A program made the position numbers and the translations under genes. A DNA stretch of 64,000 nt, from the NCBI GenBank assembly GCA_964016885.1, contig OZ024756.1, positions 24,676,001 through 24,740,000 of the forward strand, read 5' to 3'. This stretch comes from Eledone cirrhosa (lineage: Eukaryota). A model generated the notes under the pieces. It had not been told where the DNA came from and ran no database searches. It was given only the letters and a program-made list of their open reading frames with translations. Below are positions 38,260-64,000 of this stretch, in pieces (within the stretch, counting starts at the first letter, position 1; each line of letters starts with the position of its first letter).

Positions 38260-38322
38260 GTATATATATATTTATTATATATTTGATATATATTTATCCT
38301 TATCGAGCCCTCTTTTGATTTT

Positions 38323-38361
<39 letters not shown>

Positions 38362-39229: not shown

Positions 39230-39308
<79 letters not shown>

Positions 39309-39727
39309 TTGGGGAGGGTCATATTTGTGTAATAATATTGCCAGAATTAATAACAGAACACACTCACTGTTTGGTTGGTTTTCGCTTCTGTCTTTTATAT
39401 CGGTTAACTTAATTTATTTGGTCCTCAATAGGAAACATAATAGCACCACTGACGATGTTGCAGATGTGCAACGAAAGAACTTTGTTAGACTATATATATG
39501 TGTTTGTGTCTATATTGTATCTGTATTTTTGACCGTTGGTCAGTCAATGGTAACATTGAGGACCGAATAAATTAAATTAACTGATATAAAAGACACAGAA
39601 GCGAAAATCAACCAAACAGTGAGTGTGTTCTGTTATTAATTCTGGCAATATTATTACACAAATATGACCCTCCCCAAGTATAACAATATTTGTTTCGACA
39701 CACGATTTCATATCAAAAACCTCGCAA

Positions 39728-39820
<93 letters not shown>

Positions 39821-40949
39821 TGTATGTATGTATGTATGTATGTATGTATGTATATACAAAGTCAATATCAATATAAGTTCTATATATATATATGTGCGTA
39901 AGCATATATATTATTATAAAGAATATTTTCTTAGAATCTTCAGAGAAGAAATATTAATGATGTTGCTGGAAGGTAGTCCAATCTATACAACAGCGAATGA
40001 AATTTTCCATTACTGGAATAATTATTTCTTCAGAGAAATGCCCAGAGATCAGTATACGTCGGAGTGCATGCCTTATATTTGGGGAGGGTCATATTGTTAT
40101 AATATTGCCAGAAATAATAATAAAACACACTCACTGTTTGGTTTGGATTGGTTTTCGCTTCTGTATATTTTATAACCCTATAGTTAATTTAGCTGGCAAT
40201 CAATGTTTATCATTGATCGACCAACGGTTAAAATATAGATATTAATATATATATAGTCTATCAAAGTTCTTTCATCACACACCTGTGACATCATCAGTGG
40301 TACTACATCATCAGTGGTACTATTCCTCCCGTTGTATTGTCTATTCCATTTTTATTTATTTATTTATTCTTGTCTCTGTTTGCGCATGCGTTTGTGTGTG
40401 TGTTTTCTGTTTGGTGTGTGTTCGTGTCTGAGTATATGTGTATTTGTATTCTATCTTTGCTCACTGGTGTGTTTTTATGTGTGGTTATTGTTATTGTACC
40501 TGTGTATATTTATTTATATTCATCGTAGGTCAGTATTGTGTGTTTGTGTATGGTTGTTGTTGTTATTCCATTCCTGTTTTCTGTTCAACTTTGGTTTTCT
40601 TAGTTCTATTTCAGTTGCTTCTCTGATTTGTCTACCCGTTGAGTCATTTCTATGTTTAGAAATTATTTTAATTTCTATGTTGTCTATGCAGCCGCTACGT
40701 AGAATCAAACTCTGTATCTCTCGGATACCTTTTGAGTGCGTTACCCATTACTCTATGGCGCAGCTGACCACGAATTCGGTCAAATTTAAGGGGTATGTAC
40801 AAAACAGCTTGCGGTTAGAGCTTAACATAAAGCCTAAAGCACTAGACCAGTATTCGAGAAATACGGAATTCGATCCTCCATAATGGCTGCTGGCCACTTT
40901 TTTTCATCTCCAGGTGTATTTTATCTGATTTTATAGCCATCGACTGTTG

Positions 40950-41063
<114 letters not shown>

Positions 41064-41223
41064 AGAGTCAGGACCCCGACGGCTAAGCTCCGGCCCTTTC
41101 GACAGCTAGATCCGGTGCTCAGCCGTCGGGGTCCTGACTCTTTTCCTATTACCCACTCTACTACCCTAATTATCGAGTACTCTGGTGCGTTATGGTCCAC
41201 CTGGTTTCTTACCACACCTTCTT

Positions 41224-41266
<43 letters not shown>

Positions 41267-41272
41267 CAAACA

Positions 41273-41532
41273 CAGAGTGGGATTTACGTATAAGCTAAAC
41301 AAGCTATAGCTTAGGGCGCCCACTTTCTTGAGGCCCCGAAATAATTGAAAAAAAAAACGGTGTGTACATTTCCAAAATATAAGATAAAAAAGAACTAAAA
41401 TAATGCAATAGTTTTAAACAGTTTTCTGCTTTAATATTGAAGGTTTTGCAGTTTTTATAACATTTTATAACATATAAAGGGCCCCATTATCTCAAATAGC
41501 TTAGGGCCTCATCAAATCTAAATCCGGCCCTG
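41273..41532. mobile_element. hAT-type MITE with 8-bp TSD CCCAAACA
   Basis: TSD at 41265-41272 and 41533-41540; imperfect TIRs cagagtgggattta / taaatccggccctg. Confidence 0.8.
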
Positions 41533-42631
41533 CCCAAACAGTGCGTATAAGGGAATGAAACTTTGTATTGTATTTAAAATGTTAGAAGACTTTCATCTGT
41601 GAATCGGTTAAAAGATTTTTTTTATTGTTCCTCTTTTCTACACCAGAAAGGTTTTACGATTGGTTAACAGTTGACTAAACCAGAATTGAAGTTTAAACAC
41701 GAGTGAGACTGCCTTAGTTGGGGTCATCTATTCTTTAAAAATTCTTAGATGTTGAAGTCATCGACTACAGATTTTACAACGCTGAAATATTAGCTTTCTA
41801 AAATCTAAACTATAATAAGAGCCGTGTTTGTCAGTCCGTGCGTCGTCACACTCTCTATGTTGAGGGAGGAAAATACTACTCCATTTCTCACTCACTCCCC
41901 CCCCCCCCTCTCCTCACTCTAACTAACTAAAACGTAACGTCTAGAACGAAATTACGGAGTCTTTTGGTTGTTTTGTGTGTCTGTGTGTTTGTGAAAGATA
42001 AATAGATAGGTAAACACTATTGTCACCTGACAACGCGGGAATCTTAAGTGCATGTCAGTCAACACGTTTGGAAAAAGTGTGTGTTTCTGAAACCTCACGC
42101 TTAGAAAAAGAAAAGAAAAAAATGATACAAAGTCTAGTTTGCGCCATCAACTTCTAACAACTTTTGAAGAAAAGATGACATCAATTCAAGCTTGTTCTTG
42201 TTCAAACGTGCCTTCAACTTCTAACAACGTTTCAAGCAAACATAACATCAATTACAGCTTGATTCAGTTCAAACTTTAAAGTCTGATTTATTCGTCCGTT
42301 AACCAACTTCCTGGTGTGGGGGAAAAAAAATCAAAGAATCTTTTACCGAGTCTTTTAAGCCTTTTAATTCTTTTAAGACTGGAAATTCTTAATGAAGTAC
42401 TGAAGTGAGGTATTATTTCTTTATACGTCTTGTTTTGAGCGTTTAATCATTAAAAACTTTCTTATAATTCTGTCAAGGCGGCGAATTGACAGAAAGTTTA
42501 TGACGTCAGAATGATTTATGGTATTTGTTCCGCCTCTCTGAGTTCAAATCCCGCCGAGGTTGACTTTGCTTTTCATCCTTTCGAGTTCAATAAAAAAAAA
42601 AGTACAAGTCTAGTCCTGAGGTTGATTCTTC

Positions 42632-42664
<33 letters not shown>

Positions 42665-43127
42665 TCTTTCTATCCTTTTCTGGAAGGAGTTACATATGCC
42701 GCTACTACGGCGCCGCTCAAACACATAGTATTGTCACAATGCTTTCAAATTTGCCTTGAAACTCCAATTCATACGAACACTGTACACACAAAAGCACACA
42801 ACACATACACACTCATTCGGAAAACACTTACACACATATACATTCGCACACATATACATTCGCACAAATACACATATGCACAGTAAGACACACATACACA
42901 CACACCACACACACAGTACACACACAAACACACACAAATACACACACAGACAGTACACAGCATGCATATACACCCACATTTACACACACAGTACACAGAC
43001 AGTACACACACAGTACAGACACAGTGTGTACACACACACACACACACACACATAAATAGTACATATACACACGCAATGTCAACATATTGATCGATGTTAA
43101 TAATCTATCAATACATTTATATTACAG

Positions 43128-43170
43128 GTAGCTTCAACGTCAGCTTTCTGATTGATGGACCATTTGGCAG
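43128..43170 (+). CDS. PKHD1L1: PKHD1L1-like exon (GSFNVSFLIDGPFGR)
   Basis: ttacag| ... |gtaaga; phase 1-2; resembles GHHNVSFILDNDYGR. Confidence 0.9.
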
Positions 43171-43329
43171 GTAAGACCATCATTTTCGAGATCGTAAAGT
43201 AAGGCTTGGATTCTGCAGGTTTCCACTCCCAACTCGGGCCGGCGGGGCTGAACCAAGGGGACGATAAAAAGAAAGCCGGCCCGACCATCTTCCCGTTCTA
43301 TGGAGGTAAACCCCTCATCTAGGATACCA

Positions 43330-43762
43330 AAAGCAGCGGCACTTTCTCCAGCGGCAACCTGGTGCAGTCTGCACCTGACCCAAGGAAGCCAAATGCAGCG
43401 ACACTTTCTCCAGCGGAAACCTGGTGCAGTCTGCACCTGACCCAAGGAAGCCAAATGCAGCGGCACTTTCTCCAGCGGCAATCTGGTGCAGTCTGCACCT
43501 GACCCAAGGAAGCCAAATGCAGCGGCACTTTCTCCAGCGGAAACCTGGTGCAGTCTGCGACTGACCCAAGGAAGCCAAATGCAGCGGCACTTTCTCCAGC
43601 GGCAACCTGGTGCAGTCTGCGACTGACCCAAGGAAGCCAAATGCAGCGGCACTTTCTCCAGCGGCAACCTGGTGCAGTCTGCGACTGACCCAAGGAAGCC
43701 AAATGCAGCGATGCAGCGACACTTTCTCCAGCGGCAACCTGGTGCAGTCTGCACCTGACCCT
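43330..43762. repeat. 62-bp GC-rich minisatellite, about 7 copies, inside an unclassified GC-rich segment (about 43180-44035)
   Basis: Unit ccaaatgcagcggcactttctccagcggcaacctggtgcagtctgcacctgacccaaggaag. Confidence 0.92.
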
Positions 43763-44309
43763 GGCTCTGCCGAGGAGGGCAAACTCTCAAAATAACAGTC
43801 GCTCTCCGACAGGTTGAGCCCGTAGCAGTGGAGACTTCTGGTGTCCTTGACCAGAAAACCACCTCACTACTCACCACCATCGGCATGGAGTTAGCTACCC
43901 GCAGGTGTGATCCTCGCAAGCTAGAATGTCTCTTCCAACGCGTCTCCCTCTCCATCTACCGGAACAACGCCTTCTCTATTCTGTCCGCCGGGGCTGCGGG
44001 ATGAAAAACCACCCGTAGAGTGGTTTTTCTGATAGTTACTCTAATAGCATGTGTAGTGTACATATTTATATTATATGCAAATATACATGCATGTAGATAT
44101 GATATGTCAACTAAAATCGTAATTGAGAATATGCACAGAAATTGAACGAAGACACTGTTACACTGTCTTCTGTAATCAGTAAAGTAATCCATGATGCATT
44201 CAAAAAAGACGATATTATATATAAACTGCATAAAGGATTCTCGGTAAGAAAGTGTCCGAATCAAATTTTGTCTTTTCTTTCTTGCAAACATAAATATCGA
44301 TTAGTTTAT

Positions 44310-46881
44310 ATCATATTACTGGGTAGTGTAGGCGGCGAATTGGTGAATCGTCTATTAGTGTATAGTGTAGGTGGCGAATTGGTGAATTGTCTATTACTGG
44401 GTAGTGTAGGCGGCGAATTGGTGAATCGTCTATTAGTGTATAGTGTAGTTGGCGAATTGGTGAATTGTCTATTACTGGGTAGTGTAGGTAGCGAATTGGT
44501 GAATTGTCTATTACTGGGTAGTGTAGGTAGCGAATTGGTGAATTGTCTATTACTGGGTAGTGTAGGTAGCGAATTGGTGAATTGTCTATTACTGGGTAGT
44601 GTAGGTGGCGAATTGGTGAATTGTCTATTACTGGGTAGTGTAGGCGGCGAATTGGTGAATTGTCTATTACTGGGTAGTGTAGGTAGCGAATTGGTGAATT
44701 GTCTATTACTGGGTAGTGTAGGTAGCGAATTGGTGAATTGTCTATTACTGGGTAGTGTAGGTAGCGAATTGGTGAATTGTCTATTACTGGGTAGTGTAGG
44801 TAGCGAATTGGTGAATTGTCTATTACTGGGTAGTGTAGGTGGCGAATTGGTGAATTGTCTATTACTGGGTAGTGTAGGCGGCGAATTGGTGAATTGTCTA
44901 TTACTGGGTAGTGTAGGTGGCGAATTGGTGAATCGTCTATTACTGGGTAGTGTAGGTGGCGAATTGGTGAATTGTCTATTAGTGTATAGTGTAGGTGGCG
45001 AATTGGTGAATTGTCTATTACTGGGTAGTGTAGGCGGCGAATTGGTGAATTGTCTATTACTGGATAGTGTAGGTGGCGAATTGGTGAATTGTCTATTAGT
45101 GTATAGTGTAGGTGGCGAATTGGTGAATTGTCTATTACTGGGTAGTGTAGGCGGCGAATTGGTGAATTGTCTATTAGTGTATAGTGTAGGTAGCGAATTG
45201 GTGAATTGTCTATTAGTGTATAGTGTAGGTGGCGAATTGGTGAATTGTCTATTACTGGGTAGTGTAGGTAGCGAATTGGTGAATTGTCTATTACTGGGTA
45301 GTGTAGGTGGCGAATTGGTGAATTGTCTATTAGTGTATAGTGTAGGTGGCGAATTGGTGAATTGTCTATTAGTGTATAGTGTAGGCGGCGAATTGGTGAA
45401 TTGTCTATTAGTGTATAGTGTAGGTGGCGAATTGGTGAATTGTCTATTACTGGGTAGTGTAGGCGGCGAATTGGTGAATTGTCTATTACTGGGTAGTGTA
45501 GGCGGCGAATTGGTGAATTGTCTATTAGTGTATAGTGTAGGCGGCGAATTGGTGAATTGTCTATTACTGGGTAGTGTAGGTAGCGAATTGGTGAATTGTC
45601 TATTACTGGGTAGTGTAGGCGGCGAATTGGTGAATTGTCTATTACTGGGTAGTGTAGGCGGCGAATTGGTGAATTGTCTATTACTGGGTAGTGTAAGCGG
45701 CGAATTGGTGAATTGTCTATTACTGGGTAGTGTAGGTGGCGAATTGGTGAATTGTCTATTACTGGGTAGTGTAGGTGGCGAATTGGTGAATTGTCTATTA
45801 CTGGGTAGTGTAGGTGGCGAATTGGTGAATTGTCTATTACTGGGTAGTGTAGGCGGCGAATTGGTGAATTGTCTATTACTGGGTAGTGTAGGTGGCGAAT
45901 TGGTGAATTGTCTATTACTGGGTAGTGTAGGTGGCGAATTGGTGAATTGTCTATTACTGGGTAGTGTAGGCGGCGAATTGGTGAATTGTCTATTAGTGTA
46001 TAGTGTAGGCGGCGAATTGGTGAATTGTCTATTACTGGGTAGTGTAGGCGGCGAATTGGTGAATTGTCTATTAGTGTATAGTGTAGGCGGCGAATTGGTG
46101 AATTGTCTATTACTGGGTAGTGTAGGTGGCGAATTGGTGAATTGTCTATTACTGGGTAGTGTAGGTAGCGAATTGGTGAATTGTCTATTACTGGGTAGTG
46201 TAGGCGGCGAATTGGTGAATTGTCTATTACTGGGTAGTGTAGGTAGCGAATTGGTGAATTGTCTATTACTGGGTAGTGTAGGCGGCGAATTGGTGAATTG
46301 TCTATTAGTGTATAGTGTAGGCGGCGAATTGGTGAATTGTCTATTACTGGGTAGTGTAGGTGGCGAATTGGTGAATTGTCTATTACTGGGTAGTGTAGGT
46401 AGCGAATTGGTGAATTGTCTATTACTGGGTAGTGTAGGCGGCGAATTGGTGAATTGTCTATTAGTGTATAGTGTAGGCGGCGAATTGGTGAATTGTCTAT
46501 TACTGGGTAGTGTAGGCGGCGAATTGGTGAATTGTCTATTAGTGTATAGTGTAGGCGGCGAATTGGTGAATTGTCTATTACTGGGTAGTGTAGGCGGCGA
46601 ATTGGTGAATTGTCTATTACTGGGTAGTGTAGGCGGCGAATTGGTGAATTGTCTATTAGTGTATAGTGTAGGCGGCGAATTGGTGAATTGTCTATTACTG
46701 GGTAGTGTAGGCGGCGAATTGGTGAATTGTCTATTAGTGTATAGTGTAGGTGGCGAATTGGTGAATTGTCTATTAGTGTATAGTGTAGGTGGCGAATTGG
46801 TGAATTGTCTATTAGTGTATAGTGTAGGTGGCGAATTGGTGAATTGTCTATTAGTGTATAGTGTAGGTGGCGAATTGGTGA
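44310..46881. repeat. 39-bp minisatellite, about 66 copies, continuous with the 5' end of a SINE
   Basis: Unit tattactgggtagtgtaggcggcgaattggtgaattgtc with variants; last unit runs into SINE body. Confidence 0.97.
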
Positions 46882-47626
46882 AGTCGTTAGAACGTCAGAT
46901 AGAAAGCTTTGCGATATTCGTTCTGGCTCTCTGCTCTCTGAGTTCAAATCCCACCGCAGTCAACTTTGCCTTTCATCCATTCTAGATCGATAAAAAATGT
47001 ATCAGTCTGGTACTGTGGTTTATTTTTCCTCTATATTTTTTTCTCATTTAGGTTTATTTCAGTTTTTATCGTTACTCGTGTTCATAGATTAAATACCAAT
47101 ACCAGTCATATTTTGGGGATTTACAGTTTGTCATCAAATCATTACCTCACTCCCCTTCACCATGCCCTCAGTCTTCTCAAAATTATATGACCTTTATACG
47201 AGAAATAATTGTTTCTACTTTTGGCACAAGGCCAGCAATTACCAAGTGCATTACTGGTACTTTATTTTATCGACCCCGTAAGGATGAAAGGCAAAGTTAA
47301 CCTTGGCAGGATTTGAACTCAGATCATAAAGGGACGTGACTACGCTGGAAAGCATGTTCGACCCTCTACCGATACTGCCAATTCACCGCCCTAAATACGA
47401 GAAATAAGGATTTTTAATTTAGACACAAGGCCAACAATTTAAGGGAAGGGATATGTCAATTAAATCAACCACACTGCATTACCGATACCTTATTTTATCG
47501 ACCCTGTAAGGATGAAAGACAAAGTAGACCTTGGCGGGATTTGAACTCAGACCGTACCAATCTAATCAACCTTCCAATACTAGAAATAGAGAAGAAAATT
47601 TTAATGATTTTCATGTTTCTTTTCAG

Positions 47627-47697
47627 ATCCCGAAAGAGAAAAGAGGAGTTCTTCCAAAGCAGAGCAGGAAAACTATATCACGTCCAGACATATGCAG
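47627..47697 (+). CDS. PKHD1L1: PKHD1L1-like exon (SRKRKEEFFQSRAGKLYHVQTYA)
   Basis: tttcag| ... |gtaagg; phase 2-1; conserved QTYA. Confidence 0.9.
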
Positions 47698-47832
47698 GTA
47701 AGGGAGGAGTCTGGAGAGTTTTGAAGGGCTAGCAGGAGTGTGAAGGGGCCAGAAGGAGCCATAAGGGACCAGTAGATTTCAATGTTATTGGGTACTATAT
47801 CACGTATGATTATATATGTGTTTCTCTGTGAA

Positions 47833-47897
<65 letters not shown>

Positions 47898-48564
47898 ATA
47901 CTTCGGGAGGGTCATGTTGCCAATAAGAAACACACGCACAAGTTGCTTTTACTACAATTTATTATAAATTTAAAAAAAATTTTTAATTTATAAATTTCCG
48001 GTTGGTTGGTTGGTTGGTTCCACAACCGGACGGTTGTTCATATATTGTCAAAGTTCTTTCGTCACACATTCTGTGACCTCTTCTACTGTATATACATATA
48101 TATATATATACTATAAAGTATGTCCATAGAATCATTTGATAATATATATAATGAACTGGGTAATTGCTGGCCTTGTGCCTAAAGTAGAAACAAATATATA
48201 TACACCATTTCCTCTCCCAATTAGCATAATTAGCCACACAAAAAATCAATTAGACCAGGCTATAAGATTAAAAGGTACCTATGAAGAAATAATAGATAAA
48301 TAAACGACAGCAATCTCTTCGCGACCAACCGCTATAGAATATTTACCCACCATTTCAATAGCACGTGGAAATCGATTAAATAAATATATCGTCAACCATA
48401 CACAATTATGTATAAAATTAAAGTTAGAAGAAAAATGCATATACACATACCAGCATTACGCTTCTACCCCTTGGGGTTTCATTCGCTTTTGGAAATATCC
48501 TATTAAGGATAAAATTCCTTATATATATTCCTTATATATATTCCTTAATTCCTTATATATATAC

Positions 48565-48759
48565 AGTAGAAGGAAGATGCAGTAGAGGAAGACCACGAAA
48601 AACATGGGCGGAGGTGGTGAGAACGGACCTCAAATCGCTAAAACTTACGGAAGAGATGACGAAGTACCGTGACAAGTGGAGAGATGCTGTGCTGAATAGA
48701 ACACGTCCCACCCTTGCAAGCAGGGAAAAGTGGACTTAAATGATGAGGATAATGAGGAT

Positions 48760-48760
<1 letters not shown>
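48565..48760 (+). mobile_element. RTE-like LINE 3' end with (GAT)n-like tail
   Basis: R.RGRPRKTW.EVVR.DL...RDKWR; 3' gcaagcagggaaaagtggacttaaatgatg. Confidence 0.65.
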
Positions 48761-48795
<35 letters not shown>

Positions 48796-48867
48796 ATCCT
48801 CATTATCCTCATCATTTATATATATATATATGTATGTATGTGCGCTTGTATAACTATACACATATAT

Positions 48868-48920
<53 letters not shown>

Positions 48921-49249
48921 GTTTGTATATGTATAATAAAGCCAAAACAATGCAGGTATGGACATAGAATAAAGAATGCAAATGCAAAAGATATTGTTGA
49001 CAATTAGTCTTTTACCTTAGATTTATTTAAATGTCCTTAATTTTCGAGATAATATCTCTTCTTCGGAGGGAAGTAAAGCTGTTAAACCAGTGTTCTAAAT
49101 AGCTTGCCAAGTCATGCTGACAGGAAATGGTATAGAGTATCTGTTCTATCTCTAATGTCAAAGAGTTAAGGAATTTTAGCCTGATAATGAGGTTGAGCCC
49201 CATTATCAGGCTAAAATTCCTTTAGTCAAAAATACGGTGAAAGCTATTC

Positions 49250-49329
<80 letters not shown>

Positions 49330-49341
<12 letters not shown>

Positions 49342-49622
49342 TGAGGATGTCTGTTTGTGAGTGTGTGAGTTTGAATCCCTAAAACTCGAGAAGCACCCAA
49401 CCGACTGTTTTCAAACTTTACACATCTAATACTTATGTTTCAGGGAGTGTTCTGAGCAAAAAACATTTCAAATGTTCAATGCCCTAGGGACCGAATTAGG
49501 CGATTTAGCGATCTCTCTCTATAATTCTTAGTCTTTCTCTTTTTAGATAGATACATACGTCGCGCCCTTATAATAATATGTCTGTATGTCTGACTGTCTG
49601 CAATACGTCACTTCCCTGAGGA

Positions 49623-49680
<58 letters not shown>

Positions 49681-50061
49681 TGTGTGTGTGTGTGTGTGTG
49701 TCTGTTAGTTTGAATTCCTAAAACTCGAGAAGTATCCAACCGACTTTTTTCAAACTTTACATGTGTATTACTTATGTTTCAGGGAGTGTTATGCACATAA
49801 ATTCAATTTTTTGATCCCCTAGGAGGTGAAAAACTGCGTTTTTTTTCAGGTTTTTAGGAATTTTTTGAGGCGTTACGTCAGACTGATTTCCTTGATTATG
49901 TATTAGTCAGTCTCTTCTTCATGCCGTGAGCAATGAAAATCGAACTTTTTTATGGCCTAGGGCCCGCATTAGGTGAAAAAGTTCATTTTTTCAACTTTTT
50001 AAGGCTTTTTTGAGGCGTTCCAAAATACCTTATAGCGTGCAACGCCGGGTACCACTGCTAG
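49330..50061 (+). mobile_element. Non-autonomous Helitron-like element with an internally duplicated 5' segment
   Basis: Starts tatataaaactgaggatgtctgt, repeated near 49617; ends gcgtgcaacgccgggtaccactgCTAGT. Confidence 0.6.
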
Positions 50062-50070
50062 TATAATATA

Positions 50071-50135
<65 letters not shown>

Positions 50136-50317
50136 TATATATTATATATATATATTGGTATCACCCTAACTATATATACGTATATATTGGTATCACCTTC
50201 ATTATATATACGTACATATTATATTGGTGTATCCTCCTCTATTTATATGTATTTCCATTGAAATCATCGAAGTAAGGATTGTTGACTATTTATGTTCCTC
50301 GGGTGTTTCCATTTCAG

Positions 50318-50428
50318 AAATTGAATCAGTTCACCCTAGCGAGGGCAGCGTTCTAGGAGGAGCTTCCCTGACCATTAAAGGAAAGAACTTTGATGAAACA
50401 ACAGTTAAGGCCGAGGTATTTGTAGGAG
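50318..50428 (+). CDS. PKHD1L1: PKHD1L1-like exon, IPT/TIG (EIESVHPSEGSVLGGASLTIKGKNFDETTVKAEVFVGG)
   Basis: tttcag| ... |gtaggg; phase 1-1; TIG motif P..GS..GG..LTI.G..F. Confidence 0.95.
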
Positions 50429-50853
50429 GTAGGGTTATGTAAATTTTCTAGTCTTGTTTGTTAACATTTATCAAAAAACTTCCCATCATAATATAATTTT
50501 AGAAACTGTATTAAGTTATGTTCCAAACACTAGCTTTAATAATAAGAAAATTTGTTATATTACTACATACCTCCAAATTCTTGATTATTTTAAAAACTAT
50601 TTGAAAATCAGAGCAGTATCTTTCATTAGAAATATGTCAGCAAAATGGTAAAAGTGTATATATTTATCTAAAAAACTTTTATCATAATTTTATCTAAGAA
50701 CTTTTGTTAAGCTATGTTCCAAACACCAGCTTAATAATGAGAAAATTTGTTGTTTTTCAAATACTTGATTATTTTTAAAAATCGTATGTAGTATCTTTTA
50801 TTGGAAATATGGTAAGAAAATGGTTAAATGATGATTTGTTTTTCATTAAAAAG

Positions 50854-50946
50854 GTAAACGGTGTGTGATCACATCCAAAGTAACAGACGATACCATCATA
50901 TGTGATGTAGCTTCAATACCAGACGACATGCCATCGATACATGCAG
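50854..50946 (+). CDS. PKHD1L1: PKHD1L1-like exon (KRCVITSKVTDDTIICDVASIPDDMPSIHAG)
   Basis: aaaaag| ... |gttagt; phase 1-1; second half of TIG (C...VT...I.C). Confidence 0.85.
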
Positions 50947-51174
50947 GTTAGTGACATTATTTTGGCAGAATCGGTAGAGCGTTGGACACCATGCTTTGTA
51001 GCATAGAGTTATGGCCCTTGGCGTTCTGATTTCAAATCCCGCCAAGGTTAACTTTGCCTTTCATCCTTACGTAGTCGATAAAAGAAAGTACCAGTGATAC
51101 ACTGGGTTATCGCTGGTCTTGTGGCAAAAGAAGAAACAATTATTTACTATTCTGTAGTGGTAGTGGTAATGGTG

Positions 51175-53686
<2,512 letters not shown>

Positions 53687-53767
53687 TAGTACTATAACTT
53701 AGTATCCCTGAAATATATATAACGAAATAAATTATGATGCTATAGTGATATATTTTCCATTTATTAC

Positions 53768-53814
<47 letters not shown>

Positions 53815-53819
<5 letters not shown>

Positions 53820-54228
53820 ATGAATAAAACAATGAAACAGTTCCTTATATTAAACAAAAAAAGTTCATTATTTAACGATCGTTTCTAGGATATATATGTG
53901 TTAGAATTGGCATGCATATTCAACAGATCTATGTACAAAATTATACAAAATTATACAAACTATCAAGATTAAATATACATACCAAACACACATATATGCC
54001 GTCTTCAGAAATAATGAAATATTTCATTATTTCTGAAGACGGCATATATGTGTGTTTGGTATGTATATTTAATCTTGATAGTTTGTATAATTTTGTATAA
54101 TTTTGTACATAGATCTGTTGAATATGCATGCCAATTCTAACACATATATATCCTAGAAACGATCGTTAAATAATGAACTTTTTTTGTTTAATATAAGGAA
54201 CTGTTTCATTGTTTTATTCATTATTTTT
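53815..54228. repeat. Near-perfect 410-bp palindrome centred near 54020
   Basis: Identical 62-aa ORFs on both strands; centre gaaatatttc with no spacer. Confidence 0.95.
54025..54175 (+). ncRNA. Hammerhead ribozyme core with greatly extended stem II, mirrored on the minus strand
   Basis: CAUUAUUU-CUGAAGA-(about 116 nt)-GAAA-CGAUCG-UU^-AAAUAAUG. Confidence 0.65.
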
Positions 54229-54369
54229 TTAATATTTTATCTTGACTCTGTATTCCGTTTATCTTTCACCGAAAGTGATTTTTCATTGCATCTCTTCTTT
54301 CCATGATATCCGGACTACATTGAGTTCTTCATACGGATTGGACACTACCGTAAACTCTTGGTAGATTTA

Positions 54370-54419
<50 letters not shown>

Positions 54420-54465
54420 AAGGAAAAGCGAAGTAGTTTCAGATGTTCAAGTCCTTTAATAATAA

Positions 54466-54540
54466 TGCTGTGATATATATTTCAATGACGACACTGGCCA
54501 CACTGTTCTGTGTGCGAGTGTCGTGTCATCATCAGACAGC
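54466..54540 (-). ncRNA. Minimal hammerhead ribozyme
   Basis: Minus strand GCUGU-CUGAUGA-UGACACGACACU...AGUGUCGUCAUU-GAAA-UAUAUA-UC^-ACAGC. Confidence 0.78.
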
Positions 54541-55181
54541 TTGTTACATAATAAGGTTATGTTTCCGAGGCAATCTAAATTGAATCGACATGGGAACAGA
54601 TGAAGTTCGTGCTTTTGGGTTTTTCATCCGTTCCCTTGTGAGTACCAATTCACCCCCACCGGTCTGCGCAAGCGCATGTCCGAAGGAAGTTGACCATTAA
54701 CCACCGCCGATTTCAACGAAATTCGCTGTCAGTTCACCCTCTCAGCCAAAACAATGGCCCACCTATGCCCTACCAAAGTTTACTGCTACCCATCACTACT
54801 GTGGCAGTCAGCCGAAAGCCAGAGGGGATGGGAGGGTGTTAGTTTTTATAGGTCATAATACTACCTTTCACTAAGCGTTGACAGTAAGACTGACCATCAA
54901 CTCATAAGGGAAAATAAACTTAATTCTAGGTACCATGGTTTTACATTGGAAGTTAATAGTGAGAGTTGGAAATAAAAATTTAATTTTTAAGGAAAAAGGG
55001 GAAGAGAGGAAAAAAACAAATATTTCAAATTATTTAGATGAATTATTTATTAATATCATTCATATTATACACCAGAGAACTTGCCGAGTGCTTCGAATCT
55101 GTTATAAATATATATATTTGTTGAATTACCAACAAATTAAATATCCCTTTGCTTATATATATATATGTGTATGTGTGTGTT

Positions 55182-55272
<91 letters not shown>

Positions 55273-55624
55273 TAATATCTCTTCTTCGGAGGGAGGTAAA
55301 GCGGTTAAACCAGTGTTCTAAATAGCTTGCCAAGTCATGCTGACAGGAAATGGTATACCATTTCCTGTCAGCATGACTTGGCAAGCTATTTAGAACACTG
55401 GTTTAACCGCTTTACTTCCCTCCGAAGAAGAGATATTATCTCGAAAATAAAGGACATTTAAATATATATATTTAAATGATTAGAATACTGGAGCGTGTTT
55501 GAGTCAAACACCCTCTTCGTATTATAGAAATGACAGTAAAAGGTATAGCTCAATGCAGTTAAACAGAGCCAAAAAATTAAGAGAGTAAAACAAAGAATCC
55601 TTTAATACATCAAAAGTTTTTATT

Positions 55625-55664
55625 AGCCGACAATGTTTCGTCCTATTAAGGACTCATCAGGGCA
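55625..55664 (-). ncRNA. Canonical minimal hammerhead ribozyme
   Basis: Minus strand GCC-CUGAUGA-GUCCU/AGGAC-GAAA-CAUUG-UC^-GGC. Confidence 0.85.
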
Positions 55665-56002
55665 ATCAAAACAACAAGAGGTAATATCGGCAGATACAAG
55701 CCAGAAACTCTGAAGAATATGGAGTGTACATACACTAATGTCTTACAAAGATATACGATAATAAAAATGAAAATAAAGATAAAAATAATAAAAATATATA
55801 ATAACTAAGGATGTAGATAACATTAAGAACCATATTACAAATATAGTCCAAAACCACCAACCTAAATCTAAACAAATTTGGTTATATACAGCAGGAATTA
55901 TATATAACACAATATAATACATTATAATAATAATATATTTATACCAACATTAAAAATTCCAAATTAAAAATCAAAAGGTACAATATATACATGTATATAT
56001 GT

Positions 56003-56045
<43 letters not shown>

Positions 56046-56779
56046 ACAATACACATATCTATGTTCTATTACACAGAAATTAAGCCCTATTAGAAGTTTG
56101 AATATTAAAAATAAGCATGGTAATAGTGAAAATAATACTAATACATCTACCCAATATACATGAGGCAATAATATGATATAATTACAAGAAACACATATAA
56201 CAAATAATAAACAACAAAATTATATAATTCAATACAATATAATAAAGTAGAATAGATAATCCCCGGTTAATTTACAGAAACAATATAGATGTCACAATGA
56301 AATACAATGATAAAATGTTAACATTATGTTAACAAGTACCATAAGCAATATATACAAAATGATTCATACTGGGTTACATAATAAATGAGGAAATATAAAT
56401 CATATAATACTCAAAAAAACTATAATGGTACAGGGAAAAATTGTGATGTTACAGAAAAGATATGATGTTACAGAAAAAAATATACAGACATCTCACATGA
56501 TATGTAAAGTCTAAATATCATAATGTTACATATTACAATATTAAAAATATATATATATATATATATGTAAAGTTATATTTAAAATTGTTGGGTTACAAAA
56601 CTAGACTAAAATCAAATGAAGTTGATGTTTATTACGGTATGTCGAATATATTTATCTATAAAACTGTTTATATTGTATTTTGTCTGATGAAGGCATAGCA
56701 TATTGTTAATATGATATCCCCGAAATATATATAATGAAATAAATATGGTTTTATAAATATAGTTTTCCATTTATTTAAT

Positions 56780-56867
<88 letters not shown>

Positions 56868-56980
56868 TCCCTATCTATCTATCACTCTATCTCTCTCTTT
56901 GTCTCTTTCTATCTTTATCTATCTATCTATCATCCATCTATCCCTTTATCTCTCTCTCTCTCTATCTATCTCTCTCTCTC

Positions 56981-57027
<47 letters not shown>

Positions 57028-57050
57028 ACCACTCTGTCTGTGTGTTACAG

Positions 57051-57307
57051 GAAACCGAGGTATGAAAGTGGAGAGCTGGAATTTCTCATTAAATTCCCTT
57101 TCCAAAGTACGATCCTATGATGGGAACAATTCTGGTTACGAGCAGCACTGGAGTGAGAATGGTAAATACGAAACGAGCAGTGACCGAAAAAGTATTCGAA
57201 TGTCAGGATTTTTGTTTCCTATCTACACTGGCAAACATTTCCTCAGATTAAGTAGTAATGGACCGTCACAGATTTGGTTGAGCAAGAACGAGAGTAAAGA
57301 ATTCTTG
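57051..57307 (+). CDS. PKHD1L1: PKHD1L1-like exon, PA14-like region ([11 protein letters not shown]...[12 protein letters not shown]...[13 protein letters not shown])
   Basis: ttacag| ... |gtaaga; phase 1-0; resembles GGRGLKLEVWN...RFSGFL. Confidence 0.92.
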
Positions 57308-57489
57308 GTAAGAAACTGTCTGTATCGAATCTTCTATCTACTTTCTAGCAAATGTAAATATCAACTGCTTTATGTCATTCGTTGACAGAACGTCTGCTAA
57401 TTCCACCCAAATTATGTTAACTATCAAAGGTGGACTGGGTCTTAAAACCAGTCCAGTCACACTGGCCACACTTGCTAACACGCTACCAG

Positions 57490-57850
57490 GAGTATTTTAC
57501 TGCTCAGCTAGGGTGACACTAGTTAACTGGCTACTGAGGGCCAGGTGCTCAGCTAAGGTGATTCTAACTAACAGACTGTTGAGAGCCAGAGGTGTGTTTT
57601 CACTGCTCAGCTAAGGTGACAATAACTAACAGACTGTAGAGGGCCAGAGGTATGTTTTCACTGCTCAGCTAGGGTGACGCTGACTAAGATTGCTGAGGGC
57701 CAGAGGTGTTGTTTCACTGCTCAGCTAAGGTGACATAAACTAACAGACTAATGAGGGCCAGAGGTGTGTTTTCACTGCTCAGCTATGGTGACACTGACTA
57801 ACAGACTGTTGAGGGCCAGAGGCGTGTTTTCACTGCTCAACTAAGGTGAC
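57490..57850. repeat. About 58-bp degenerate minisatellite, about 6-7 copies
   Basis: gccagaggtgtgttttcactgctcagctaaggtgac...actaacagactg at 57585, 57643, 57699, 57757, 57815. Confidence 0.88.
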
Positions 57851-57876
57851 ATTTATCTTTATATTTGTTTATTCAG

Positions 57877-57920
57877 CGTCGTTCTGAGAATGTCGAAGTT
57901 GATCTGATCAAAGACAAAAG
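57877..57920 (+). CDS. PKHD1L1: PKHD1L1-like short exon (RRSENVEVDLIKDKR)
   Basis: attcag| ... |gtaaaa; phase 0-2 bridges the neighbours; resembles RSDDIHLQKGKE. Confidence 0.8.
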
Positions 57921-58244
57921 GTAAAAAATCAATCAGTTTTCTACACCTTTAACTTTATCACTCACTACGTCATGTTGTTGTCATTGTTGTTGTTAAGTAG
58001 CTGATATTATTGTGGCTATTATTGTGTTTGTGGTTGTTGTGAGTGTTATTGTAGCTGATGGTGTGACTGTTATTCTATCTGTTGTTATTGTTATTGTAGC
58101 TGCTGTTGTTTCGGTTGTTATTGTTGCAGCTGTTGTTGTGGTTGTGTTTGTGGTTGTTATTATAGCACTCATCATTGATCTTTCTAGAAATAATGTCTAA
58201 CCCTTAGCTCCTCTGACGAAGGTGCATTTTCTTTTATATTCTCT

Positions 58245-59321
58245 ATTTCTCTCTCCATCTCTCAATCCTCTATTCCAACTACTCCCTCTCTATCTATCTA
58301 TCTCTCACATACCCCCTCTCTCATCTATTCCAGCTACCTTCTCTCTATCTCTCACACTCTCCTCTCCCTCTCTCATCGATTCCAGCTAATTTCTCTCTAT
58401 CTCTCACACTCTCCTCTCCCTCTCTCATCTATTCCAGCTACTTTCACTCTATCTCTCACACTCTCCTCTCCCTCTCTCATATATTCCAGCTACTTTCTCT
58501 CTATCTCTCACACTCTCCTCTCCCTCTCTCATCTATTCCAGCTACTTTCTCTCTAGCTCTCACACTCTCCTCACCCTCTCTCATCTATTCCAGCTACTTT
58601 CTCTCTATCTCTCACACTCTCCTCTCCCTCTCTCATCGATTCCAGCTAATTTCTCTCTATCTCTCACACTCTCCTCTCCCTCTCTCATCTATTCCAGCTA
58701 CTTTCTCTCTATCTCTCACACTCTCCTCTCCCTCTCTCATCTATTCCAGCTACTTTCTCTCTATCTCTCACACTCTCCTCTCCCTCTCTCATCTATTCCA
58801 GATACTTTCTCTCTATCTCTCACACTCTCCTCTCCCTCTCTCATCTATTCCAGCTACTTTCTCTCTATCTCTCACACTCTCCTCTCCCTCTCTCATATAT
58901 TCCAGCTACTTTCTCTCTATCTCTCACACTCTCCTCTCCCTCTCTCATCTATTCCAGCTACTTTCTCTCTATCTCTCACACTCTCCTCTCCCACTCTCAT
59001 ATATTCCAGCTACTTTCTCTCTATCTCACACACTCTCCTCTCCCTCTCTCATCTATTCCAGCTACTTTCTCTCTATCTCTCACACTCTCCTCTCCCACTC
59101 TCATCTATTCCAGCTACTTTCTCTCTATCTCTCACACTCTCCTCTCCCACTCTCATCTATTCCAGCTACTTTCTCTCTATTTCTCACACTCTCCTCTCCC
59201 TCTCTCATCTATTCCAGCTACTTTCTCTCTATCTCTCACACTCTCCCCTCCCTCTCTCCTCTATTCCAGCTACTTTCTGTCTATCTCTCACACTCTCCTC
59301 TCCCTCTCTCATATATTCTAG
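58245..59321 (+). repeat. 52-bp pyrimidine-rich minisatellite, about 20 copies, ending at the 3' splice site of exon 59322
   Basis: Unit ctactttctctctatctctcacactctcctctccctctctcatctattccag; AGs at 59165, 59217, 59269 and the real acceptor at 59321. Confidence 0.95.
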
Positions 59322-59487
59322 GTACTACATGGAGATTTTATATGAAAACAAATACTCCCGCTCTACTCCAATTGTGCTGGCAAAGATGTTCAGTAGGACT
59401 TCCTCTGTGACTCGCTCCCAGACTGGTTTTGCTATAAACACCAAACAAAAGATCATACTGAAAACAACCTTCACCAATGAGACAATG
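59322..59487 (+). CDS. PKHD1L1: PKHD1L1-like exon, last in window (YYMEILYENKYSRST...QTGFAINTKQKIILKTTFTNETM)
   Basis: ttctag| ... |gtaagt; phase 2-0; resembles YYIEIL...QTGDAVNEEQ. Confidence 0.92.
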
Positions 59488-62400
59488 GTAAGTAGTGTCA
59501 GGTTAGGGTAGCTAAAGACCCTGGGTTAGAGAAGCAATGAGACAATGGTAAGTAGTGCCAGGTTAAGACAGCTAAAGACCCTGGGTTAGAGAACCAATGA
59601 GACAATGGTAAGTAGTGTCAGGTTAAGACAGCTAAAGACCCTGGGTTAGAGAAGCAATGAGACAATGGTAAGTAGTGCCAGGTTAAGACAGCTAAAGACC
59701 CTGGGTTAGAGAACCAATGAGACAATGGTAAGTAGTGTCAGGTTAGGGCAGCTAAAGACCCTGGGTTAGAGAACCAATGAGACAATGGTAAGTAGTGCCA
59801 GGTTAAGACAGCTAAAGACCCTGGGTTAGAGAAGCAATGAGACAATGGTAAGTAGTGTCAGGTTAGGGCAGCTAAAGACCCTGGGTTAGAGAACCAATGA
59901 GACAATGGTAAGTAGTGTCAGGTTAGGGCAGCTAAAGACCCTGGGTTAGAGAACCAATGAGACAATGGTAAGTAGTGCCAGGTTAAGACAGCTAAAGACC
60001 CTGGGTTAGAGAAGCAATGAGACAATGGTAAGTAGTGCCAGGTTAAGACAGCTAAAGACCCTGGGTTAGAGAAGCAATGAGACAATGGTAAGTAGTGTCA
60101 GGTTAGGGCAGCTAAAGACCCTGGGTTAGAGAACCAATGAGACAATGGTAAGTAGTGTCAGGTTAGGGCAGCTAAAGACCCTGGGTTAGAGAACCAATGA
60201 GACAATGGTAAGTAGTGCCAGGTTAAGACAGCTAAAGACCCTGGGTTAGAGAAGCAATGAGACAATGGTAAGTAGTGCCAGGTTAAGACAGCTAAAGACC
60301 CTGGGTTAGAGAACCAATGAGACAATGGTAAGTAGTGCCAGGTTAAGACAGCTAAAGACCCTGGGTTAGAGAAGCAATGAGACAATGGTAAGTAGTGTCA
60401 GGTTAGGGCAGCTAAAGACCCTGGGTTAGAGAACCAATGAGACAATGGTAAGTAGTGCCAGGTTAAGACAGCTAAAGACCCTGGGTTAGAGAAGCAATGA
60501 GACAATGGTAAGTAGTGTCAGGTTAGGGCAGCTAAAGACCCTGGGTTAGAGAAGCAATGAGACAATGGTAAGTAGTGCCAGGTTAAGACAGCTAAAGACC
60601 CTGGGTTAGAGAAGCAATGAGACAATGGTAAGTAGTGCCAGGTTAAGACAGCTAAAGACCCTGGGTTAGAGAAGCAATGAGACAATGGTAAGTAGTGTCA
60701 GGTTAGGGCAGCTAAAGACCCTGGGTTAGAGAACCAATGAGACAATGGTAAGTAGTGCCAGGTTAAGACAGCTAAAGACCCTGGGTTAGAGAAGCAATGA
60801 GACAATGGTAAGTAGTGTCAGGTTAGGGTAGCTAAAGACCCTGGGTTAGAGAACCAATGAGACAATGGTAAGTAGTGTCAGGTTAGGGTAGCTAAAGACC
60901 CTGGGTTAGAGAACCAATGAGACAATGGTAAGTAGTGCCAGGTTAGGGCAGCTAAAGACCCTGGGTTAGAGAAGCAATGAGACAATGGTAAGTAGTGTCA
61001 GGTTAGGGCAGCTAAAGACCCTGGGTTAGAGAAGCAATGAGACAATGGTAAGTAGTGCCAGGTTAAGACAGCTAAAGACCCTGGGTTAGAGAACCAATGA
61101 GACAATGGTAAGTAGTGTCAGGTTAGGGCAGCTAAAGACCCTGGGTTAGAGAACCAATGAGACAATGGTAAGTAGTGCCAGGTTAAGACAGCTAAAGACC
61201 CTGGGTTAGAGAAGCAATGAGACAATGGTAAGTAGTGTCAGGTTAGGGTAGCTAAAGACCCTGGGTTAGAGAACCAATGAGACAATGGTAAGTAGTGTCA
61301 GGTTAGGGTAGCTAAAGACCCTGGGTTAGAGAACCAATGAGACAATGGTAAGTAGTGCCAGGTTAGGGCAGCTAAAGACCCTGGGTTAGAGAAGCAATGA
61401 GACAATGGTAAGTAGTGTCAGGTTAGGGCAGCTAAAGACCCTGGGTTAGAGAAGCAATGAGACAATGGTAAGTAGTGTCAGGTTAGGGCAGCTAAAGACC
61501 CTGGGTTAGAGAAGCAATGAGACAATGGTAAGTAGTGCCAGGTTAAGACAGCTAAAGACCCTGGGTTAGAGAACCAATGAGACAATGGTAAGTAGTGTCA
61601 GGTTAGGGTAGCTAAAGACCCTGGGTTAGAGAACCAATGAGACAATGGTAAGTAGTGTCAGGTTAAGACAGCTAAAGACCCTGGGTTAGAGAACCAATGA
61701 GACAATGGTAAGTAGTGTCAGGTTAGGGTAGCTAAAGACCCTGGGTTAGAGAACCAATGAGACAATGGTAAGTAGTGTCAGGTTAGGGTAGCTAAAGACC
61801 CTGGGTTAGAGAACCAATGAGACAATGGTAAGTAGTGTCAGGTTAGGGTAGCTAAAGACCCTGGGTTAGAGAACCAATGAGACAATGGTAAGTAGTGTCA
61901 GGTTAGGGCAGCTAAAGACCCTGGGTTAGAGAACCAATGAGACAATGGTAAGTAGTGCCAGGTTAAGACAGCTAAAGACCCTGGGTTAGAGAAGCAATGA
62001 GACAATGGTAAGTAGTGTCAGGTTAGGGCAGCTAAAGACCCTGGGTTAGAGAACCAATGAGACAATGGTAAGTAGTGCCAGGTTAAGACAGCTAAAGACC
62101 CTGGGTTAGAGAAGCAATGAGACAATGGTAAGTAGTGTCAGGTTAGGGCAGCTAAAGACCCTGGGTTAGAGAACCAATGAGACAATGGTAAGTAGTGCCA
62201 GGTTAAGACAGCTAAAGACCCTGGGTTAGAGAAGCAATGAGACAATGGTAAGTAGTGCCAGGTTAAGACAGCTAAAGACCCTGGGTTAGAGAACCAATGA
62301 GACAATGGTAAGTAGTGTCAGGTTAGGGCAGCTAAAGACCCTGGGTTAGAGAACCAATGAGACAATGGTAAGTAGTGTCAGGTTAGGGTAGCTAAAGACC

Positions 62401-64000
62401 CTGGGTTAGAGAACCAATGAGACAATGGTAAGTAGTGTCAGGTTAGGGTAGCTAAAGACCCTGGGTTAGAGAAGCAATGAGACAATGGTAAGTAGTGCCA
62501 GGTTAAGACAGCTAAAGACCCTGGGTTAGAGAAGCAATGAGACAATGGTAAGTAGTGCCAGGTTAAGACAGCTAAAGACCCTGGGTTAGAGAACCAATGA
62601 GACAATGGTAAGTAGTGCCAGGTTAAGACAGCTAAAGACCCTGGGTTAGAGAAGCAATGAGACAATGGTAAGTAGTGCCAGGTTAAGACAGCTAAAGACC
62701 CTGGGTTAGAGAACCAATGAGACAATGGTAAGTAGTGCCAGGTTAAGACAGCTAAAGACCCTGGGTTAGAGAAGCAATGAGACAATGGTAAGTAGTGCCA
62801 GGTTGAGACAGCTAAAGACCCTGGGTTAGAGAACCAATGAGACAATGGTAAGTAGTGCCAGGTTAAGACAGCTAAAGACCCTGGGTTAGAGAAGCAATGA
62901 GACAATGGTAAGTAGTGCCAGGTTGAGACAGCTAAAGACCCTGGGTTAGAGAACCAATGAGACAATGGTAAGTAGTGCCAGGTTAGGGCAGCTAAAGACC
63001 CTGGGTTAGAGAACCAATGAGACAATGGTAAGTAGTGTCAGGTTAGGGCAGCTAAAGACCCTGGGTTAGAGAACCAATGAGACAATGGTAAGTAGTGTCA
63101 GGTTAGGGCAGCTAAAGACCCTGGGTTAGAGAAGCAATGAGACAATGGTAAGTAGTGTCAGGTTAGGGCAGCTAAAGACCCTGGGTTAGAGAACCAATGA
63201 GACAATGGTAAGTAGTGCCAGGTTAAGACAGCTAAAGACCCTGGGTTAGAGAACCAATGAGACAATGGTAAGTAGTGCCAGGTTAAGACAGCTAAAGACC
63301 CTGGGTTAGAGAACCAATGAGACAATGGTAAGTAGTGCCAGGTTAAGACAGCTAAAGACCCTGGGTTAGAGAACCAATGAGACAATGGTAAGTAGTGCCA
63401 GGTTAAGACAGCTAAAGACCCTGGGTTAGAGAACCAATGAGACAATGGTAAGTAGTGTCAGGTTAGGGCAGCTAAAGACCCTGGGTTAGAGAACCAATGA
63501 GACAATGGTAAGTAGTGCCAGGTTAAGACAGCTAAAGACCCTGGGTTAGAGAAGCAATGAGACAATGGTAAGTAGTGCCAGGTTAAGACAGCTAAAGACC
63601 CTGGGTTAGAGAACCAATGAGACAATGGTAAGTAGTGCCAGGTTAAGACAGCTAAAGACCCTGGGTTAGAGAAGCAATGAGACAATGGTAAGTAGTGCCA
63701 GGTTAAGACAGCTAAAGACCCTGGGTTAGAGAACCAATGAGACAATGGTAAGTAGTGCCAGGTTAAGACAGCTAAAGACCCTGGGTTAGAGAAGCAATGA
63801 GACAATGGTAAGTAGTGCCAGGTTGAGACAGCTAAAGACCCTGGGTTAGAGAACCAATGAGACAATGGTAAGTAGTGCCAGGTTAGGGCAGCTAAAGACC
63901 CTGGGTTAGAGAACCAATGAGACAATGGTAAGTAGTGTCAGGTTAGGGCAGCTAAAGACCCTGGGTTAGAGAACCAATGAGACAATGGTAAGTAGTGTCA
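59473..64000 (+). repeat. 60-bp minisatellite, more than 75 copies, starting inside exon 59322-59487 and running off the window end
   Basis: Unit accaatgagacaatg-gtaagtagtgtcaggttagggcagctaaagaccctgggttagaga, exact 60-bp period. Confidence 0.98.

What the first reader, a model, noticed from the sequence alone, without database searches (positions are those of the whole stretch)
59473..64000. At least 76 consensus donors (ATG|GTAAGT) at exact 60-bp spacing
Seen: each unit carries the last about 15 exon bases plus GTAAGT, invariant from 59488 to 63988 while three other sites vary. Reading through in the exon frame hits TAG in every unit (ctg ggt TAG; the first unit also has ggg TAG). Use of any downstream donor would therefore give NMD or a truncated product lacking the membrane anchor (inference). 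Each unit also has a CAG|GT motif (recursive-splice-like, but with no pyrimidine tract) and a possible in-phase 18-nt microexon ag|AGAA(C/G)CAATGAGACAATG|gt encoding R(T/S)NETM, which contains an N-glycosylation sequon.
Basis: partly seen in the sequence, partly recalled or inferred. Interest (0 to 1): 0.7.

Follow-up and report, generated by a model that had tools for sequence, protein, structure and literature searches.

The report
Splice-donor minisatellite in fibrocystin-like gene
A 60-base piece covering the predicted end of an exon and its splice signal is repeated at least 76 times head-to-tail in a likely fibrocystin-L gene; this kind of repeat is already known from human and lancelet genes, where the cell usually cuts at the first signal, and that is likely the case here too.

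Summary
In detail: 76 identical ATG|GTAAGTAG motifs lie exactly 60 bp apart (59488-63988), and the array runs off the window. It is one minisatellite of 11 unit variants. Its first unit straddles the predicted donor of exon 59322-59487 of a stop-free, 14-exon IPT/PA14 (fibrocystin-L-like) gene model. This is a known kind: human F7 intron 7 VNTR, lancelet 'mirages'. The special readings fail. Donor invariance is expected by chance (P 0.36-0.61). The stop 'in every unit' is one intronic stop copied. The microexon and recursive acceptors have no pyrimidine tract (0.41 and 0.35, against 0.59-0.94 for model acceptors). Most likely this is a near-neutral repeat, with the first donor chosen by position. 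No RNA could be examined, so donor use is inferred. Earlier scan notes report three similar arrays elsewhere in this genome (one of about 335 donors) and one in another genome.

The parts
59473..64000 (+). 60-bp minisatellite, at least 76 units; unit = last 13-15 exon nt + first 45 intron nt; runs off the window
59485..59495 (+). first (predicted authentic) donor ATG|GTAAGTAG, GT at 59488, phase 0
   Evidence: 8 of 11 matches to the U1-complementary consensus, tied best of the 11 GT sites between exon start and first in-frame stop; not shown by RNA
59499..59509 (+). CAG|GTTAGG motif, GT at 59502, repeated in each unit; donor-like competitor 14 nt downstream, not a recursive acceptor
59509..59511 (+). 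first in-frame TAG after the exon; included by any downstream donor
59322..59487 (+). predicted coding exon, 166 nt, end of the PA14-like region
   Evidence: AG/GT ends, frame continuity; weak profile match across its 5' junction (3.9 bits)
58314..59326 (+). 52-bp pyrimidine-rich minisatellite, 19.5 copies, ending on the acceptor of the same exon; 19 decoy acceptors, 5 in frame and stop-free
57877..57920 (+). predicted upstream exon (44 nt)
57051..57307 (+). predicted exon, PA14 domain
   Evidence: Pfam PF07691 E 5.9e-4, 20.1 bits, below the curated cut-off of 24; PA14 clusters at 0.94 in the atlas
50318..50428 (+). predicted exon, IPT/TIG domain
   Evidence: Pfam PF01833 E 8.5e-7 on 50296-50427
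6873..59487 (+). 14-exon model of the N-terminal part (463 aa) of a fibrocystin-L-like host gene
   Evidence: all 14 exons AG/GT, 0 stops; three exons were picked with a phase/no-stop/pyrimidine filter and one by motif, so openness is partly by construction

Best explanation
This is a 60-bp minisatellite whose first unit covers the predicted exon-intron boundary of a likely fibrocystin-L gene, so that amplification copied the donor 75 or more times into the intron, and the spliceosome likely uses the first donor and ignores the rest. Shown: the array, its unit, its variants, the in-frame stop, and a second array ending on the same exon's acceptor. Inferred: a 60-bp tandem duplication across the junction was amplified by slippage or unequal exchange, with variants shuffled between units. 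Inferred from human F7 and lancelet cases: position (most upstream donor, shortest exon) decides the choice, and rare use of later donors would give stop-containing messages that are degraded. The array would then be close to neutral.
For: Perfect 60-bp phase, mean 2.3 differences between units. All four allele combinations for columns 11/47, 11/19 and 19/47, and a repeated 6-unit block (48 of 2,000 shuffles reach 6 or more): ordinary minisatellite turnover. Host model open through the exon up to the first donor; IPT starts near model residue 240 and PA14 near 308, without the missing first exon, against 258 and 322 in human fibrocystin (PMC13424714 Table 1). Only 6 of 1,520 acceptor-donor pairs are open, all use the first donor, and the modelled exon is the shortest. 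In F7 minigenes only the most upstream functional donor is used, whatever the number of repeats up to 12, and stronger downstream copies compete only at perfect consensus (PMC1557585). Lancelet mirages are reported not to disturb splicing (PMC3087553, PMC3902484). Contigs of three public runs of one sample carry the unit variants at 3.8-7.3 depth per window copy, close to the 4.7-5.6 of a flanking contig, so the array is in reads at about this size.
Against: No transcript or orthologue confirms the junction. CAG|GTTAGG at 59502 ties with 59488 on a crude U1 count (8 of 11) and the next exon lies outside the window, so the phase cannot be closed. In IFI6 (6-16) and CBS the nearest two pseudo-donors are used as well (PMC1557585 introduction, second-hand). 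F7 was tested to 12 units in mammalian cells; 76 or more units in this animal is an extrapolation. The model is about 18 residues shorter than a profile of PA14 hits at the 57307/57877 junction, and no convincing extra exon was found.
Confidence: 0.8

Rival explanations
1. Leaky or regulated use of downstream donors makes the array a length-dependent dial: more units, more stop-containing messages, less protein, or a secreted N-terminal fragment.
For: All 76 donors are identical to the first over -3..+8 and as good as the gene's other donors (8 of 11 against 6-10). Every downstream donor includes TAG 59509. Proximal pseudo-donors are used in IFI6 and CBS (PMC1557585 introduction).
Against: A stop soon after a donor is usual: read-through of four upstream model donors stops at codon 5, 2, 26 and 2, against 8 here. 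Donor invariance is not beyond chance. Adding or removing units did not change F7 splicing.
Confidence: 0.1
2. The units act as cassette microexons (RTNETM/RSNETM) that add glycosylation sequons, or as recursive splice sites.
For: An 18-nt, phase-0, stop-free AG...GT segment and a CAG|GT motif are in 75 of 75 units.
Against: Pyrimidine fraction 0.41 (microexon) and 0.35 (CAG|GT) against 0.59-0.94 for 14 model acceptors; no TGC in the 20 nt upstream in 75 of 75; neighbours only 42 nt apart; CAG lies 14 nt from the donor. The segment is a by-product of the unit containing the exon end.
Confidence: 0.03
3. The array is an assembly artefact or greatly inflated.
For: The window has many local fold-back inverted duplications, including a 215-nt palindrome with no spacer. 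No contig bridged the exon and the array.
Against: 11 interspersed unit types. Unit variants occur in contigs of runs X1-X3 at depths giving 61-110 units if the flanking contig is single-copy (rough, one sample, possibly the assembly's own, and the tool warns that depth is no copy number).
Confidence: 0.04
4. The true donor is another site (such as 59502) or the gene is not expressed, so the 76 motifs are not copies of a working donor.
For: 59502 ties on the U1 count; no orthologue was retrieved.
Against: GTAAGT at 59488 is the full intronic consensus; the 14-exon chain has canonical ends and no stops (partly by construction).
Confidence: 0.03

Closest known systems
Human F7 intron 7 37-bp VNTR (Borensztajn et al. 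2006, PMC1557585; parts 1, 3 and 4 of 6 read)
   Same: First monomer spans the exon-intron boundary; identical pseudo-donors follow the authentic donor.
   Different: 5-9 units of 37 bp with 4 exon nt and a weaker donor, splicing tested; here 76 or more units of 60 bp with 13-15 exon nt, a GTAAGT donor, a second array at the acceptor, and no RNA test.
Human IFI6 (6-16) intron 2, CBS intron 13, LMNB2 and PDGF minisatellites (only as summarised in the introduction of PMC1557585)
   Same: Donor reiterated 10-25 times in an intronic minisatellite.
   Different: Fewer units; in 6-16 and CBS two proximal pseudo-donors are also used, in LMNB2 and PDGF only the authentic one.
Amphioxus 'mirages': Adh3, globins BflGb6/BflGb9, troponin C, PGBD5 (PMC3087553, PMC3902484; passages read)
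   Same: [quoted passage not shown]
   Different: Few units in the globin and PGBD5 cases (2-7); in the passages seen no exon is described with arrays at both ends.
Fibrocystin / fibrocystin-L (PKHD1, PKHD1L1; PMC13424714, passages read) as host gene
   Same: IPT domain followed by PA14 at matching distance from the N-terminus.
   Different: G8, PbH1 and membrane anchor would lie beyond the window; orthology not tested.

Membership tests
Splice-junction minisatellite (F7-type / 'mirage') | Head-to-tail array with a minisatellite-size unit | tested here: met
   period 60, 75.4 copies, 96% matches
Splice-junction minisatellite (F7-type / 'mirage') | Terminal unit spans an exon-intron boundary, so the splice site is reiterated in the intron | tested here: met
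   13-15 exon nt plus 45 intron nt per unit; the boundary comes from the gene model, not from RNA
Splice-junction minisatellite (F7-type / 'mirage') | Authentic site used mainly or only | not testable with these tools
   no RNA holder listed
Splice-junction minisatellite (F7-type / 'mirage') | Copy-number polymorphism or instability | not testable with these tools
   one sample only; internal variant shuffling seen
Recursive splice site (features recalled, not from a call) | Pyrimidine tract + YAG directly followed by a GT donor | tested here: not met
   CAG|GT present but pyrimidine fraction 0.35 in 75 of 75
Cassette microexon (features recalled, not from a call) | 3-27 nt, frame-preserving, AG/GT ends | tested here: met
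   18 nt, phase 0, no stop
Cassette microexon (features recalled, not from a call) | Strong pyrimidine tract and UGC motif upstream | tested here: not met
   0.41 pyrimidines; TGC in 0 of 75
Fibrocystin/fibrocystin-L (host gene) | N-terminal IPT domain(s) followed by PA14 | tested here: met
   TIG E 8.5e-7; PA14 E 5.9e-4, below Pfam's cut-off; positions as in PMC13424714 Table 1
Fibrocystin/fibrocystin-L (host gene) | Further IPT repeats, G8/PbH1 regions, C-terminal anchor | not testable with these tools
   beyond the window; no genome held
Fibrocystin/fibrocystin-L (host gene) | Orthology by sequence to a named member | tested here: inconclusive
   three searches limited to proteins of at most 2,000 aa found nothing; 24 representative hits, of which the six looked up were unnamed or differently named

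The most novel reading that the evidence does not exclude
Minisatellites in this genome are born preferentially at splice junctions, and this exon, boxed by 19 decoy acceptors and 75 or more decoy donors, is tuned by them: array length sets how much message is lost through stop-containing donors, and every third upstream acceptor adds in-frame 52-residue Ser/Leu/His-rich blocks inside the PA14 region.
Probability: 0.08. Interest if true: 0.6.

Novelty: new member of a known kind. Interest (0 to 1): 0.22.

Why it matters
As it stands it is a large but ordinary example of a described repeat type. Its modest value: one 166-nt exon faces 20 near-equal acceptors and 76 or more identical donors, which makes it a natural test of position-based splice-site choice (exon definition, first-donor rule) well beyond the 12 units tested in F7. 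With the other arrays noted in this genome it suggests a genome-wide count of minisatellites at splice junctions, which the two cephalopod paper searches here did not show in print (listings only).

Tried and rejected
Whole genome: none held, so the end of the array, the next exon and genome-wide counts are out of reach. RNA: no RNA holder listed; three runs of one sample, kind not on record. In one search the exon itself (59330-59529) had no contig cover; this is not evidence either way. A depth baseline on a unique exon was not obtained, so the size estimate rests on one flanking contig per run. Orthologue searches with three exons found none (limited to 2,000 aa). PDB sequence search gave one weak PA14 hit, E 0.081. 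Pfam scan: 2 of 8 exon translations had a family. Selection on the donor: rejected, P 0.36-0.61. RNA structure that singles out the first donor: none, z -0.05 for 59440-59680. Poly(A) signals in the array: 0. Missing exon in 57308-57876: 127 open candidates scored; the best (48.6 bits against 40.4 for the direct join) have poor splice sites and gain mainly by filling a gap, so none was accepted. Enrichment of arrays at splice sites within the window: 2 of 6 arrays overlap one of 28 boundaries, 0.16 expected, P 0.01, but only P 0.12 once the array that prompted the finding is set aside: not established. Paper searches with no or no relevant hit: 0 papers; 2; 2; 4; PMC10078293 passages had nothing on this arrangement. 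Earlier-note searches by place, relatives, sequence and gene name showed nothing.

Full report
1. Observation. The window holds 76 copies of ATGGTAAGT on the + strand, all 75 spacings being 60 bp, with GT at 59488 to 63988. A 19-nt junction motif has 76 exact matches and no others at up to three mismatches; shuffles give 0.02. TRF reports period 60, 75.4 copies, 96% matches. The array is cut by the window's end. The 75 full units fall into 11 types that differ at six columns (11, 18, 19, 21, 22, 47), with 19 and 21 fully linked. The count of variable sites (three) is slightly low.

2. Is the array real? Contigs of three public runs of one sample carry unit variants at depth 113-310. Divided by the number of window copies of the same words this is 3.8-7.3 per copy for 8 of the listed contigs, against 5.6 and 4.7 for a 576-nt contig from the flank of the upstream array. 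That gives 61-110 units. This is rough: the tool warns that depth is no copy number, 44 records were not shown, the exon itself had no cover, and the sample may be the one assembled. All four allele combinations occur for three of the four column pairs tested, and a six-unit block recurs (48 of 2,000 shuffles reach six or more). This is what unequal exchange and slippage give in minisatellites (general knowledge).

3. Host gene. On the + strand I built a 14-exon chain from 6873 to 59487: 463 codons, no stop, every exon bounded by AG and GT. Ten exons were read by eye, guided by my recollection of human PKHD1L1; three were found with a phase, no-stop and pyrimidine filter and one by motif, so the open frame is partly by construction. 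Independent support: Pfam TIG (E 8.5e-7) and PA14 (E 5.9e-4, below the cut-off) on 2 of 8 exon translations scanned; PA14 clusters in the atlas; and a profile of 17 PA14 hits that picks up the 57877/59322 junction weakly (3.9 bits). IPT begins near model residue 240 and PA14 near 308 without the first exon; human fibrocystin has them at 258 and 322 (PMC13424714 Table 1, passages). The name fibrocystin-L is therefore likely, not proven: three homologue searches, capped at 2,000 residues, found nothing. The model is about 18 residues shorter than the PA14 profile at one junction and I found no convincing extra exon among 127 candidates. That the animal is an octopod comes from earlier scan notes, not from a test here.

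4. The donor. Of the 11 GT sites between the exon start and the first in-frame stop (59509), 59488 and 59502 match a U1-complementary consensus best, 8 of 11 each; 59488 has the full GTAAGT. No RNA or orthologue fixes the junction, and the next exon is outside the window. The unit is the last 13-15 exon bases plus the first 45 intron bases.

5. Invariance: with six variable columns in 60, a 9-nt donor is free of them with P 0.36, or 0.61 counting three events; no sign of selection. Stops: any later donor includes the whole first unit, so only TAG 59509 matters, and the other stops are copies. Read-through of four upstream donors stops at codon 5, 2, 26 and 2 against 8 here, so a near stop is usual. 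Truncation before the anchor follows if the gene is fibrocystin-like (inference). Microexons: the acceptor has 0.41 pyrimidines at -20..-4 in 75 of 75 units, against 0.59-0.82 for the ten exons read by eye and 0.59-0.94 for all 14; no TGC; neighbours 42 nt apart against a shortest model intron of 425 nt. Recursive site: 0.35 pyrimidines, 14 nt from the donor; the motif is better seen as a second, frame-shifting donor candidate. No unusual RNA fold around the first units (z -0.05).

6. The same exon's acceptor is the end of a 52-bp array (58314-59326, 19.5 copies). Nineteen upstream copies have a pyrimidine tract and CAG as good as the modelled site (0.76-0.94 against 0.82). Of the 20 x 76 = 1,520 possible exons, the modelled one is the shortest (166 nt), and only 6 are open, all ending at donor 59488. 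In both arrays the copies lie on the intron side, as expected if arrays that disturb the exon are removed by selection (inference). Within the window 2 of 6 minisatellites overlap one of 28 boundaries (0.16 expected; P 0.01, or 0.12 after setting aside the array that prompted the finding), so enrichment is suggested but not shown.

7. Mechanism. Shown: anatomy, variants, stops, second array. Inferred: a 60-bp duplication across the junction was amplified; the first donor wins by position; rare leak is removed by nonsense-mediated decay. The basis is F7 intron 7, where identical pseudo-donors are functional but only the most upstream one is used, whatever the unit number up to 12 and unless the downstream site is a perfect consensus (PMC1557585; parts 1, 3 and 4 of 6 read). 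Its introduction lists 6-16 and CBS, where two proximal pseudo-donors are also used, and LMNB2 and PDGF, where they are not (second-hand). Confidence 0.8. Regulated leak 0.1; artefact 0.04; microexon or recursive use 0.03; other donor or dead gene 0.03.

8. Known relatives and novelty. Lancelet 'mirages' are the same thing at 5' or 3' boundaries and are said not to disturb splicing (PMC3087553 and PMC3902484, passages). Tandem repeats at exon-intron boundaries can produce alternative splicing and new introns in human duplicated genes (PMC2812944, passages). Earlier notes of this scan describe a donor array of about 335 units, an acceptor array of about 247 and one of 67 elsewhere in this genome, and a nine-unit donor array in a worm; these are unchecked notes. 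They gave me the term 'mirage' and two papers, which I read in passages; I had reached the F7 comparison before seeing them. Searches for octopus or cephalopod minisatellites in introns listed 2 and 4 papers, none on cephalopods by title and abstract start; the library lacks most subscription papers, including the original mirage report, which I did not see. No supplements were read; those of the two lancelet papers hold the repeat alignments and could show an exon with arrays on both sides.

9. Verdict. Observation confirmed; interpretation partly supported; new member of a known kind; interest 0.22. The array is large, and the exon boxed on both sides is a tidy test case, but nothing here points to a function of the repeated donors.

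Noticed in passing
window 58314-59326: 52-bp CT-rich minisatellite ending on the acceptor of the same exon: 19 upstream copies of pyrimidine tract + CAG (pyrimidine fraction 0.76-0.94 against 0.82 for the modelled site); 5 of 19 are in frame and stop-free and would add 52-260 residues. It overlaps at most 5 exon bases, 4 matching.
   Followed up: yes
window 1-476: 44/51-bp array with a donor-like YAG|GTCAGATG in 10 units; it runs off the left edge, upstream of the first modelled exon, and could be a third junction array of the same gene.
   Followed up: partly
window 57546-57851: 58-bp array (5-7 units, 84% matches) with a donor-like AAG|GTGA motif, ending 26 bp before acceptor 57877; the PA14 model is about 18 residues short at this intron and no convincing exon was found.
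   Followed up: partly
window 44314-46882: 39-bp minisatellite, 66 copies, open in one + and two - frames for over 850 codons; its right end runs into a dispersed element that carries a tRNA-box-like motif (6 copies of the motif on the + strand). Likely non-coding, inside a model intron.
   Followed up: partly
window 53806-54235; 37291-38100; 51190-53682; 19738-23584: Local fold-back inverted duplications of 215-461 nt at 94-99% identity, one with no spacer: real rearrangements, intronic hairpins or assembly chimeras; not resolved.
   Followed up: no
window 7280-8725, 14448-14885, 20448-22070: Long open frames inside model introns that look like retrotransposon reverse-transcriptase/endonuclease fragments (judged by eye, not searched).
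   Followed up: no
window 43327-43761: 62-bp GC-rich minisatellite, 7 copies, 157 bp downstream of donor 43170; does not overlap a modelled splice site.
   Followed up: partly
window 59473-64000: 36 units contain TTAGGG and the array is strongly purine-skewed on the + strand (GC skew 0.32-0.37); probably incidental.
   Followed up: no
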